In this document: piece after piece, positions 13,520 to 16,500 of the stretch | How the letters are laid out: each line of letters starts with the position of its first letter | Numbering within the stretch: the stretch's first letter is position 1 | Assembly: GCF_055900595.2 (NCBI RefSeq) | Contig: NZ_CM148325.1 | Length of the DNA stretch: 64,000 nucleotides | Strand: one strand, 5' to 3' | Made by a program: the position numbers

Positions 13520-16500
13520 TAAATAAAACAGGAGGCGAAGGTGCCTCCCGTTTTATTTTGTGCACTCAGTATCTACTGAATGAATACGGTTTCAGACATC
13601 GGCACCATACGAAGTAAAGTGTACTGTAAGCTGATTGCAGGCTAGCGTATCCTGATTAGTAAAAGCACACTAAAGGAATAGCTTGATGCAACTTACCAAC
13701 GAAGAACAAGTACAGATTGCTCGTATAAAAGAAAAAATCCCACGCATTGCCGCACTGGATCCTGAATGTAAGTTATTCGGTTCTGAAGGTTGGAAATATC
13801 AATGGCCGAAGCCTGCCAGCGAGGCGGAAATAGCTTCCTGGGAGAAAAAACATAGCGTCACTTTGCCACGGGAATATCGAATTTTTCTTCGCTATATCGC
13901 TAATGGCGGTCCGGCACATGCCTACGGTCTTGAATCTTTAGGCGGTACAGATATTTATGGCGATATAACAAAAGAAAGCCCTGTACCGCTTTATATGACG
14001 CAGCAGGATGTTGATGTGTTGAATGCTGGCCGTACAGAAGATGATGAAGAATATAGTTTTTTTGACGGCGCATTGACCATTCTCACCCTGGGATGTACTT
14101 ATGATATTTGCCTGGTGGTGACGGGGCAGTATCGCGGAAGGTTAATGCTGACTGATGGTGATGAAGATTATCCGTTTGATTTTATATATGATAAAAATTT
14201 CCTCAACTGGTATGAACGCTGGCTGGACGATTTTATTGCTGGCATGAGTATGAAGGGTTTCGATAGAAGTTTGCCAGGAACGCAAATTCAACTGCGTGAG
14301 TGGTTTTTAACTGAGAAAATCCCGGATTTACGTAGATCCATTTTATTCTCGCTATGCCGTTTTCCACAGATAGAACCCGAAACATTTGCCCTTTGGGAAC
14401 ATGTTTGCCACACAGAGAATGATAAAGAATTGTGTGAAGAGGCATTCATAAGATTACGCCAAAAAAAAGTTTCTTGTGCTGCAGATATTTTTCGACTCTA
14501 TTTTACAATGCCAGATGAATTACGTGATATTGCTATTAAAGATCTCCGTTTTGCCTGTAGAGATAGTGTGGTGAATATTGAGGATTATATTCATTCACTG
14601 TTAATAATAATGCCTGAACTTGACGATGACACTCTATCCTCAGCTGTCTTTGCTATACGAGAAACAGAGTATAATAAATATGATACTTTTCTGCCGCTTC
14701 TCGAACGTATCACTGATGACCGTCAGCAAACATTATTGTGGGCGATGAGTAAGGCGCCTGATTTCAATGAAAGCCGAGGATTCATTGAGTTGGTATTACC
14801 GCTTTTTGCATCATCAAAGATGGAGAATGTAAGGAAGGCTATTTTGTTGCTCATTGAAGTTAAAGATAATCGTATTCCACCATTGGTTGATGAAGCTGCA
14901 ACTCGTTTCCCTGAACTGACCATTTTACGAGAAAACTACTATCTCAGGACGTGGGGACATAAGCCATAAATTAATGGTTCAGAAATGATCTAACGCGGAG
15001 AAAAATATGATCAGGGAACATATTCAGCAAGCGATAAATAATAGGTTAGCCTTTGATGGCCCATTCAATGTTGTTCCTGAACCTGCAAGCACTGCGTTTG
15101 ATAGCCGGATCCCGACATTGAAAAACGGTGTCTGGCAGAAGGCCAGCCCTATGTTGCAGGCGCGTTTTGCACATTGTGGACGTTGGTTAAGCGCTACACA
15201 TGGAAGCTGGCTAAGTATAAGTGACATGGAAACGCTTTGGCAGGAACACATAGAAGATACGTTTCTTGATGAAATCAAAATGAATGCTGTAGCTTCAAGT
15301 GATAATTGGGATAACCATGCCTTGGGACTATTTCGTTCTCATCGCCTGTCACTTTTTGCCGGTAGTGATTACAGTTATGAAATGGTTTTTCTCCTTTGGC
15401 TAGATAGTACCGTTGAGCCAGAGGTCTGGGTTTATGACTGCAATGGGGAATCACGTTATAAAGATCTTAATGATTACCTGAATGCATATATTAATGATGA
15501 CGTAAGCGCCTGTGAGTGCTCCTGGCGAGTAGAATGAATAGCCCCCCTTGCCCCTTTGATCCACAAACCGCACATTACCTCGGCACAGTGCAAATCCACT
15601 ACACCCAAACCGCCTTCAACGCTGCCGTTAAGCATTATACCTGTTACATTAAAAAGCGTTTTAAAGGGTTTAAATGGGGAATCCGAACCGCTGGCTTATT
15701 GGCTATACTGCCCATGATCCCACAATGGTTGAAACCTTCTCATGACTTTAAACTCAACGCAATCAGTACGTTAATTCTTCTATTAATGTTGCCACTCCTC
15801 TTATCAATGTTCCTGTTAATCAGCAGAAGAATTAACGATTTTAAGTCAAAAACAAAGCAAGTTACTTTTACGAAACCCGTGCGTTATGCGTTTTATTTCG
15901 AGGGGATTGTTTTTTATGAATCTCATCAGCAGGGCATACTTCGCTGGGAAGATTTTTATAGCATTGAGTATGAAGAAGATTATTTGTGGCTTTTTCTGCA
16001 TTTACCGAAGAGTTGTCCCAGAGAAGCGACGAAAGCGTTTTGCGATATTTTCATTCCCACCAGTGCGATAAAAGCGCAGCCTGAACTGGATACGTTTTTT
16101 CGTGAAACACGCCACTCGCTGGATTATCTGTTTGTCCCGTTTAATTCTGACAGAAAATAACATATCCCCCGTATCTGGTGAAACGGGGGATTTCGTCGCT
16201 TAACTTATCGGATTACAGTTTTGGACCAGCCGCTACCAGCGCGGCACCCGCAGGGGTGTCGGTGTATTTATCGAAGTTGTCGATAAACAGTTTCGCCAGC
16301 GTTTCAGCTTTTTCCTGCCACTGTTCCGGAGAAGCGTAGGTGTTACGCGGATCGAGGATCTTAGTGTCTACGCCCGGCAGTTCAGTCGGGATCGCTAAAT
16401 TAAACATCGGCAGAGTGAAGGTTTCTGCGTTATCCAGCGAACCGTTGAGGATAGCGTCGATAATGGCGCGGGTATCTTTAATGGAGATACGTTTGCCAGT

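What the first reader, a model, noticed from the sequence alone, without database searches (positions are those of the whole stretch)
13523..16212. Insertion is framed by terminators with no mobility signatures
The left edge follows the envZ terminator (13531-13559) and the right edge is a hairpin (16165-16190) with T-rich tracts on both strands, so it likely terminates both the inserted operon and pck. I could not find direct repeats, inverted repeats, tRNA, integrase or IS sequences at either junction. That suggests acquisition by homologous recombination of flanking core DNA, or an old insertion whose scars have eroded. The 13560-13685 leader is AT-rich and contains promoter-like hexamers (TTGCAG ... 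TAGTAA) before the AAGGA SD.
Basis: seen in the sequence. Interest (0 to 1): 0.4.

Follow-up and report, generated by a model that had tools for sequence, protein, structure and literature searches.

The report
Immunity-gene cassette swapped by flank recombination
The 2.66-kb stretch between envZ and pck is one rare, old allele of a swappable slot that holds predicted toxin-immunity genes, and it lacks mobile-element marks because alleles are exchanged by ordinary recombination in the neighbouring core genes.

Summary
An envZ bidirectional terminator lies on the left and a conserved hairpin on the right. I found no direct or inverted repeats above chance, and no tRNA, integrase or IS. The variable segment is exactly 13555-16211.

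It is one allele of a multi-allelic envZ-pck slot. Among 5,426 complete E. coli genomes, 18 carry this cassette, 1,331 carry a nadS-relE toxin-antitoxin cassette, one carries a HEAT-ORF3 gene, and K-12 has 44 bp. ORF3-bearing alleles occupy the same slot in E. albertii, E. whittamii, Escherichia sp. MOD1-EC7003 and a Salmonella isolate.

The E. albertii type strain has the same left junction and gene order. Its cassette is 91% identical in DNA, about as diverged as envZ and pck, so the allele is old.

Flank recombination is supported in two ways. All carriers share a private haplotype about 0.6 kb into envZ and 0.9 kb into pck. E. albertii has two cassettes in tandem, separated by pck and envZ fragments.

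The cargo is an SMI1/KNR4 protein, a second protein with a predicted SUKH fold whose homolog follows a PAAR-Rhs toxin gene, and a two-helix membrane protein. It is most likely an orphan immunity islet. This is a new member of a known kind and of modest interest.

The parts
12170..13522 (+). envZ, the left core gene. Its last ~0.6 kb (about 12960-13554) carries a haplotype private to cassette carriers.
   Evidence: RefSeq annotation of a 99.9% identical strain; flank search; SNP table.
13521..13558 (.). Bidirectional intrinsic terminator of envZ. It is shared by all alleles, and in K-12 it also serves pck.
   Evidence: Called on both strands. Folding gives -21.5 and -23.7 kcal/mol with 0 of 200 shuffles as good. 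It is identical in K-12 and the toxin-antitoxin allele up to 13554.
13555..16211 (+). The variable cassette (2,657 bp, 41.7% GC). It corresponds to 44 bp in K-12 and about 0.8 kb (nadS-relE) in 1,331 genomes.
   Evidence: Breakpoints from alignments and BLAST; present in 18 of 5,426 genomes; GC content.
13555..13685 (+). Leader with Shine-Dalgarno AAGGA at 13673-13677. Its promoter is not identified.
13686..14969 (+). ORF1, 427 aa. It has an N-terminal SMI1/KNR4 (SUKH-1) domain (residues 43-152) and a ~230-aa C-terminal part that is probably HEAT-like.
   Evidence: Pfam PF09346 scores 29.7 bits against a cut-off of 25.4. Some homologs carry precomputed HEAT_2 hits.
15007..15537 (+). ORF2, 176 aa. 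It has no Pfam family but a predicted SUKH fold, and its homolog lies directly after a PAAR-Rhs toxin gene.
15534..16160 (+). ORF3, 208 aa. Its start overlaps the ORF2 stop (ATGA). It has two predicted membrane helices and a C-terminal beta-rich domain that may be PH-like or YcxB-like. It is the conserved pck-proximal module of every ORF3-bearing allele.
   Evidence: The overlap is conserved in carriers and in E. albertii. Homologs lie in the same slot in five taxa. Model pLDDT is 73.9. The Pfam YcxB match is only E 0.22.
16164..16191 (.). Conserved G+C-rich hairpin between ORF3 and pck. It is the probable pck terminator in this allele and possibly also that of the ORF1-3 operon.
   Evidence: Folding; conservation in seven alleles with one compensatory pair.
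16213..17835 (-). pckA, the right core gene. Its last ~0.9 kb (16212 to about 17080) carries the carrier-private haplotype.
   Evidence: Annotation; flank search; SNP table.

Best explanation
Window 13555-16211 is one rare, old allele of a multi-allelic cassette slot between the convergent core genes envZ and pckA in Escherichia, also seen in one Salmonella isolate. Alleles are gained, replaced and lost by RecA-type homologous recombination, with crossovers in envZ and pck or further out. No recombinase of its own is involved, which is why no repeats, tRNA, integrase or IS are present.

The outer boundaries fall where selection on the flanks stops: the last T of the envZ terminator and one base beyond the pck stop codon. 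The cassette brings its own pck-proximal hairpin, so both convergent core genes still have a terminator.

The cargo is a three-gene + strand operon. It encodes two SUKH-superfamily proteins (ORF1, and ORF2 by predicted fold) and a small membrane protein (ORF3) that is translationally coupled to ORF2. It most likely acts as an orphan immunity islet against toxins delivered by competing bacteria (Rhs/type VI or CDI type).

Shown: the anatomy, the allele series, the linkage of flank haplotypes, the age of the allele and the E. albertii scar. Inferred: recombination as the transfer route, operon expression and immunity function.
For: Slot with several alleles and the same boundaries:
- K-12 has 44 bp.
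- nadS-relE is present in 1,331 of 5,426 genomes.
- This cassette is in 18 genomes.
- A HEAT-ORF3 fusion is in strain A30 and E. whittamii.
- HEAT + ORF2-like + ORF3-like is in L025 and Escherichia sp. MOD1-EC7003.
- One Salmonella isolate has HEAT + two toxin-tail/CdiI_5 modules + ORF3-like.

Linkage to the flanks:
- The top 18 hits for each flank are the 18 carriers, followed by a gap.
- There is a private haplotype block of 0.6 kb (envZ) and 0.9 kb (pck), with mosaicism outside it.
- Within carriers the cassette is 99-100% identical, while flank bins fall to 94.8-98.4%.
- A divergent block of at least 17 kb separates carriers from the closest non-carrier relative.

Scar: in E. albertii the order is ORF3, hairpin, the last ~57 bp of pck, an internal 73-bp pck piece, the last 278 bp of envZ with its terminator, nadS-relE, then full pck.

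Age: the left junction and leader are the same in the E. albertii type strain, with 91.1% nucleotide identity over envZ plus the cassette against 92.6% for pck.

No mobile-element features.

Cargo:
- ORF1 matches SMI1_KNR4 above the Pfam cut-off.
- A 56%-identical ORF2 homolog lies in the immunity position of an Hcp-VgrG-DcrB-PAAR-Rhs cluster. Another lies beside SUKH genes.

Literature:
- SUKH proteins are proposed immunity proteins, and supernumerary copies are proposed to guard against non-self toxins (PMC3113570).
- Hotspots without mobile elements are proposed to diversify by double recombination at flanking core genes (PMC5635113).
Against: - No transfer event is observed directly. The 18 carriers form one lineage over at least 37 kb, so vertical descent explains their present distribution, and recombination is inferred only for the origin and for the mosaic flanks.
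- This chromosomal region is polymorphic in general. K-12 and SCU-301 differ by 2-3.5% here, so the divergent block is not unique evidence of an import.
- No donor carrying the flank haplotype was found.
- Immunity is inferred from fold and neighbourhood only. ORF1 homologs in Klebsiella and Superficieibacter stand alone, with no toxin gene nearby.
- The Rhs C-terminal domain next to the ORF2 homolog has no Pfam family.
- ORF3 has no assigned function.
- No promoter was identified.
Confidence: 0.72

Rival explanations
1. It is an ancient insertion by a site-specific or transposable element whose repeats and recombinase have eroded. All later history is vertical descent plus deletion, so the K-12 empty state and other alleles are loss products.
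For: The allele is old, with E. albertii at 91% identity and the same junction. ORF3-bearing alleles occur in several Escherichia species and one Salmonella isolate. Carriers in E. coli form one lineage. The first arrival of the ORF3 module cannot be reconstructed from these data.
Against: - There is no repeat, IS or integrase remnant, and only 131, 37 and 52 non-coding bases are left to hold one.
- Unrelated cassettes use exactly the same boundaries. The nadS-relE cassette lies on the opposite strand.
- The K-12 44-bp spacer has no detectable homology to either cassette end, so it is not a simple deletion scar.
- ORF3 identity does not follow species relationships: 81% to Salmonella but 75-76% to E. 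albertii.
- The E. albertii pck/envZ scar needs recombination between two alleles.
- Among 100,044 species representatives, only three Escherichia species have ORF3.
Confidence: 0.15
2. The cargo is not a set of independent immunity genes but one functional system anchored by ORF3. A membrane effector or anchor (two helices plus a PH-like domain) would work with exchangeable HEAT or SUKH partner modules, for example as a defence or stress-sensing module.
For: - ORF3 is the only gene kept in every ORF3-bearing allele, and it is always next to pck.
- It is fused to a HEAT domain in the A30 and E. whittamii type.
- Its start overlaps the ORF2 stop (ATGA) in all carriers.
- The mosaic joint always falls at the same FDPQTAH|YLGTVQ motif.
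- There is a weak PADLOC PycTM match, E 0.0097.
Against: - The PycTM and YcxB matches are below any threshold.
- The ORF3 model is only moderately confident, and its structural matches are generic.
- ORF2 homologs occur without ORF3, next to an Rhs toxin gene and next to SUKH genes.
- In the Salmonella isolate the partners are classical CDI-type immunity modules with toxin-tail remnants, which fits a collection of orphan modules.
Confidence: 0.1
3. The cassette is an inert remnant with no current function, kept only by linkage and drift in a small lineage.
For: It is rare (18 of 5,426 genomes). It has low GC and no identifiable promoter. No toxin partner lies in the cassette.
Against: - All three reading frames are intact in all 18 carriers and in the E. 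albertii type strain, despite about 9% nucleotide divergence. One other E. albertii strain (L013) has ORF1 split into two pieces.
- The Shine-Dalgarno sequence and the ATGA overlap are conserved.
- The ORF2 family has 35 invariant columns across distant proteobacteria.
Confidence: 0.03

Closest known systems
Orphan immunity islets, for example SAIDI-1 at the yegQ locus of Salmonella Typhi (PMC7400221), and the supernumerary SUKH gene arrays discussed by Zhang, Iyer and Aravind 2011 (PMC3113570)
   Same: It is a small, AT-rich group of immunity-type genes with no adjacent toxin gene, lying between conserved core genes. Alternative islets occupy the same locus in other lineages. Homologs of its genes sit next to type VI/Rhs toxin genes elsewhere. 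PMC7400221 also suggests inheritance by homologous recombination for the edge genes of its islet.
   Different: The locus is different (envZ-pck) and the islet is much smaller, with three genes against 14. One of the two SUKH proteins is recognisable only by predicted fold. There is a constant membrane-protein module (ORF3) of unknown role. No protective function has been tested.
[quoted passage not shown] 2017, PMC5635113)
   Same: Several unrelated gene contents lie between the same two core genes. There are no integrases or transposases. The flanking core genes are mosaic and more diverse than their surroundings.
   Different: I show this for a single locus. It also has a physical scar in E. 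albertii (core-gene fragments between two tandem cassettes), which the general model does not require. I did not run formal recombination-rate estimates.
Orphan cdiA-CT/cdiI and rhs-CT/rhsI module arrays (Poole et al. 2011, PMC3150448)
   Same: The Salmonella allele of this slot holds two modules, each a toxin C-terminal tail remnant followed by a CdiI_5/DUF6392 immunity gene.
   Different: In the window allele there are no toxin remnants. The modules are not downstream of a full cdiA or rhs gene, so there is no shared upstream toxin sequence for recombination with a main toxin gene.
Classical integrase-borne genomic islands inserted at tRNA genes
   Same: It has lower GC than the core genome, a strain-specific distribution, and accessory cargo related to conflict between bacteria.
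   Different: There is no tRNA, integrase, att repeat or conjugation or phage gene. The boundaries are set by the edges of core-gene function, not by a recombination site.

Membership tests
SUKH (SMI1/KNR4) superfamily | Sequence match to a SUKH Pfam model above the curated cut-off | tested here: met
   ORF1 matches PF09346 at 29.7 bits against a cut-off of 25.4, over residues 43-152. ORF2 has no Pfam match.
SUKH (SMI1/KNR4) superfamily | SUKH alpha+beta fold | tested here: met
Polymorphic-toxin immunity protein | Gene or close homolog lies immediately downstream of the toxin gene | tested here: met
   For the ORF2 family, the Pectobacterium parmentieri homolog (56% identity) follows a 1,423-aa PAAR-Rhs gene in an Hcp-VgrG-DcrB cluster. 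This was not found for ORF1, whose homologs in Klebsiella and Superficieibacter have no toxin gene nearby.
Polymorphic-toxin immunity protein | Binds and neutralises a specific toxin domain | not testable with these tools
   This needs co-expression rescue or competition assays.
Orphan immunity islet | Immunity-type genes with no cognate toxin gene in the same locus | tested here: met
   The cassette holds only ORF1-3, and no toxin domain was found in Pfam, NCBIfam or PADLOC. The rest of the carrier genome was not searched for a cognate toxin.
Recombination hotspot without mobile elements (Oliveira et al. 2017) | Different gene contents between the same pair of core genes across strains | tested here: met
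   At least five contents occur in E. coli and its relatives.
Recombination hotspot without mobile elements (Oliveira et al. 2017) | No integrase, transposase or other mobility protein in the interval | tested here: met
   A few other strains have IS150 or IS200/IS605 in or beside the interval, but this allele does not.
Recombination hotspot without mobile elements (Oliveira et al. 2017) | Excess homologous recombination in the flanking core genes | tested here: inconclusive
   Mosaic SNP patterns and higher diversity in the flanks than in the cassette fit this feature. No formal test such as ClonalFrameML was run, and the whole region is polymorphic.
Integrase-borne genomic island or prophage | Integrase plus flanking att direct repeats, often at a tRNA gene | tested here: not met
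   There is no tRNA in 64 kb, no integrase, left and right end similarity is at chance, and there is no phage match.
IS or transposon insertion | Terminal inverted repeats and a target-site duplication | tested here: not met
   No terminal inverted repeats join the two ends, and the only strong inverted repeats are the two hairpins. No duplication is seen against K-12 or the toxin-antitoxin allele.
Intrinsic (Rho-independent) terminator | G+C-rich stem-loop followed by a U-tract | tested here: met
   Left element, both strands. The right hairpin is stable and conserved, but it fails the scan's loop and tail rules. Its U-tract is acceptable only on the pck strand.
YcxB-like / bacterial PH-domain membrane proteins | Match to Pfam PF14317 above the cut-off | tested here: not met

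The most novel reading that the evidence does not exclude
ORF3 may be the constant core of an undescribed membrane-anchored conflict system. Its partners (a HEAT domain, fused or separate, and SUKH proteins) would be swapped at a fixed joint, the FDPQTAH|YLGTVQ motif. The envZ-pck slot would then be a dedicated exchange site whose two terminators insulate each incoming cassette from the convergent core genes.
Probability: 0.1. Interest if true: 0.6.

Novelty: new member of a known kind. Interest (0 to 1): 0.3.

Why it matters
This is a clean, small example of how accessory genes move in enterobacterial chromosomes without any mobile element. The evidence is unusually direct: a private flank haplotype in every carrier, and a tandem-cassette scar made of core-gene fragments in a sister species.

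It also flags the envZ-pck interval as a slot that collects toxin-antitoxin and toxin-immunity genes. It adds a protein family (ORF2) that is a SUKH member only by predicted fold, with an Rhs toxin as a candidate partner to test. Two full-text literature searches found no description of this locus.

None of this changes current concepts. It extends known ideas about orphan immunity genes and recombination hotspots to a new locus.

Tried and rejected
- An imperfect ~45-bp direct repeat seen by eye at the two ends (GTATCT..TGAA..ACGG..TTTC..ATCGG), and its apparent likeness to the K-12 spacer, were rejected. Local alignment scores are at chance: 504, 1423 and 1273 of 2000 shuffles reach them.
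- The K-12 spacer is not a deletion scar of the cassette, for the same reason.
- I expected flank divergence to be confined to the cassette edges. It is not. The divergent block spans at least window 1-17080, and only the fine SNP table shows the tighter linked block.
- The ORF1 C-terminal part shows no BLASTP similarity to the A30 HEAT domain.
- The 170-aa gene after the Superficieibacter ORF1 homolog is not related to ORF2.
- An Rfam scan of 13400-16350 gave only two sub-threshold chance hits.
- PADLOC gave only a weak PycTM hit for ORF3. NCBIfam gave nothing useful.
- The Pectobacterium Rhs C-terminal domain has no Pfam match.
- A PDB sequence search with ORF1 found nothing.
- Plasmid and phage DNA searches found no match.
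- Differences in the annotated ORF3 start among carriers reflect annotation only. The ATGA overlap is intact in all of them.
- Literature searches for the envZ-pck locus found no description of it.
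Full report
**What is there**

- ORF1 (13686-14969) is 427 aa.
- ORF2 (15007-15537) is 176 aa.
- ORF3 (15534-16160) is 208 aa. Its ATG overlaps the ORF2 stop (ATGA).

In K-12, envZ and pckA are convergent and only 75 bp apart, with a single bidirectional terminator between them. Alignment and BLAST place the breakpoints at 13554/13555 and 16211/16212. The first falls just after the GTTTT run that follows the envZ terminator stem (13550-13554), and the second one base outside the pck stop codon. 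The variable segment is therefore 13555-16211: 2,657 bp at 41.7% GC, against 56.8% for envZ and 52.7% for pck.

**Checking the observation**

The envZ terminator is called on both strands and folds far better than shuffled sequence.

The right hairpin is real, at 16164-16191. It folds at -18.3 kcal/mol on the + strand and -20.0 on the - strand, with z-scores of -2.0 and -2.8. The consensus scan does not call it. Its T-tract is convincing only on the pck strand. It is conserved in seven alleles from five taxa, with one compensatory pair and one wobble. That is weak but consistent support for function.

No tRNA lies in the 64 kb. Repeat families are short and scattered. A candidate imperfect direct repeat that I saw by eye at the two ends is at chance by shuffling, and so is any likeness of either end to the K-12 spacer. 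None of the three proteins resembles an integrase or transposase. The DNA has no match in plasmid or phage collections. Rfam finds nothing.

The Shine-Dalgarno sequence is present and conserved. The proposed promoter hexamers match consensus only 3/6 and 3/6. The scan does not call them, and the -10 element is not conserved in E. albertii.

**The interval is a multi-allelic slot**

Contents found between envZ and pck:
- **This cassette:** 18 of 5,426 complete E. coli genomes, always at this site.
- **nadS-relE toxin-antitoxin pair, on the opposite strand:** 1,331 genomes.
- **A single 346-aa gene whose C-terminal part is ORF3-like and whose N-terminal part has weak HEAT repeat matches:** one strain, A30.
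- **IS150 or IS200/IS605 in or beside the interval:** a few strains.
- **A 44-bp spacer:** K-12. I did not count this state directly among the remaining genomes.

ORF3-like genes lie in the same slot outside E. coli:
- E. whittamii has HEAT plus ORF3.
- Escherichia sp. MOD1-EC7003 and another Escherichia/Shigella assembly have HEAT, an ORF2-like gene (66% identity) and an ORF3-like gene.
- E. albertii has ORF1-ORF2-ORF3.
- One Salmonella enterica isolate has a truncated HEAT gene, two modules of toxin-tail remnant plus CdiI_5/DUF6392 immunity gene, then ORF3.

All ORF3-bearing alleles share the right end (ORF3, hairpin, pck). Their mosaic joints fall at the same FDPQTAH|YLGTVQ motif. Among 100,044 species-representative genomes, only three Escherichia species have ORF3.

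**How the cassette got there**

The 18 carriers form one lineage. They are again the top 18 hits 12 kb away, and they are 98-100% identical to the window over 37 kb. Their nearest non-carrier relatives, SCU-301 and 2014C-3075, carry the nadS-relE allele and not an empty site.

For the envZ 3' and pck 3' flanks, the best 18 matches are exactly the carriers. After them identity drops to 96.6% and 95.7% for all other genomes. A site-by-site table shows a haplotype private to carriers over about 12960-13554 and 16212-17080. Outside these blocks the carriers become mosaics of mainstream alleles. Within carriers the cassette is 99-100% identical, while flank bins fall to 94.8-98.4%.

Against SCU-301 and K-12, the carriers are 3.5-5% diverged over window 1-17080. 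Beyond 20 kb they converge on SCU-301, at 98.3-98.9%. This fits a large recombined block that contains the cassette. The caveat is that this region is polymorphic in general.

The E. albertii type strain has a full envZ, the same terminator, the same 131-bp leader and the same three genes. Nucleotide identity is 91.1% across envZ plus the cassette and 92.6% for pck. The allele is therefore about as old as the divergence of the flanking genes between these species.

Most tellingly, E. albertii carries this cassette and the nadS-relE cassette in tandem. Between them lie the last ~57 bp of pck, an internal 73-bp pck piece, and the last 278 bp of envZ with its terminator. A junction of that kind is what a crossover between two different alleles of the same locus would leave. 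It shows that cassettes travel with pieces of their core-gene flanks. This matches the published model for hotspots without mobile elements (PMC5635113).

**What the cargo is**
- **ORF1:** it has an SMI1/KNR4 (SUKH-1) domain above the Pfam cut-off. Some of its relatives carry HEAT_2 hits in the C-terminal part. Homologs at 56-61% identity in Klebsiella aerogenes and Superficieibacter lie at another locus without toxin genes.
- **ORF2:** it has no Pfam family. A confident model (mean pLDDT 91.6) matches SUKH-fold proteins almost exclusively, including Smi1/Knr4, FBXO3, YobK, the immunity partner of the type VI effector Tde1, and Syd. A 56%-identical homolog in Pectobacterium parmentieri lies directly after a PAAR-Rhs gene in an Hcp-VgrG-DcrB cluster, which is the usual immunity position. 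Another homolog lies among SUKH genes in Corticimicrobacter.
- **ORF3:** it has two predicted membrane helices and a beta-rich C-terminal domain. The YcxB, PH-like and PycTM similarities are all sub-threshold.

SUKH proteins are proposed immunity proteins for polymorphic toxins, and supernumerary copies are proposed to guard against non-self toxins (PMC3113570). A comparable orphan immunity islet has been described at the yegQ locus of Salmonella Typhi (PMC7400221). The best reading is an orphan immunity islet. This is inference, since nothing about function was tested.

**Verdict**

The element is a new member of known kinds: an orphan immunity islet in a recombination hotspot that lacks mobile elements. 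Interest is modest.

Noticed in passing
L014 5686-6101 and L029 about 6640-7050 (E. albertii): Between the SUKH cassette and the nadS-relE cassette lie the last ~57 bp of pck, an internal 73-bp pck piece (equal to window 16805-16877) and the last 278 bp of envZ with its terminator. This is a scar of recombination between two alleles of the same slot.
   Followed up: yes
L015 3348-5618 (Salmonella enterica GCA_011001715.1): The HEAT-ORF3 gene is interrupted at the FDPQTAH|YLG joint by two modules. Each is a toxin C-terminal tail remnant (...NWDADAECLKR.YG...TGLY*) followed by a CdiI_5/DUF6392 immunity gene. The second immunity gene is truncated and fused in frame to ORF3.
   Followed up: partly
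L021 973-7661 and L014 1-2650 (E. albertii strains): In some E. albertii strains a chaperone-usher fimbrial operon (FimA, PapD, PapC, a 416-aa protein and a 79-aa fragment) lies immediately upstream of the SUKH cassette, in the position that envZ occupies in the type strain. envZ is not in the fetched loci. A short GGAGT tandem repeat lies at about L014 2818-2850.
   Followed up: no
window 19995-20030: A REP-like palindrome (GCCTGATAAGCGCAGCGCATCAGGC) lies between yhgE and hslO. Window 19917-20014 has no K-12 counterpart in the BLAST alignment.
   Followed up: no
window 3500-5500 and 8000-8500: These patches are only 84-93% identical to K-12, SCU-301 and even to some carriers. They lie roughly at bioH-rpnA and the feoA-yhgF spacer and are far more diverged than their surroundings, so they may be further small variable or recombined segments.
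   Followed up: no
E. coli genome hits H17 and H30: Strain GB2005 has an IS150-family transposase with envZ annotated in two pieces. Strain ETEC1738 has an IS200/IS605 tnpA in the envZ-pck interval. The slot therefore also receives true IS insertions in other strains.
   Followed up: no
L003 1727-1843 and L014 6820-6890: The nadS-relE allele brings its own, different pck-proximal hairpin (CCCCTTATCC GTTT GGATAAGGGG after an A-run). Each cassette type thus supplies a second terminator next to pck.
   Followed up: partly
L013 3151-4436 (E. albertii GCA_027564875.1): ORF1 is called as two pieces (296 and 132 aa) in this strain, which suggests a frameshift or stop. This may be decay of the SUKH gene in one lineage.
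   Followed up: no
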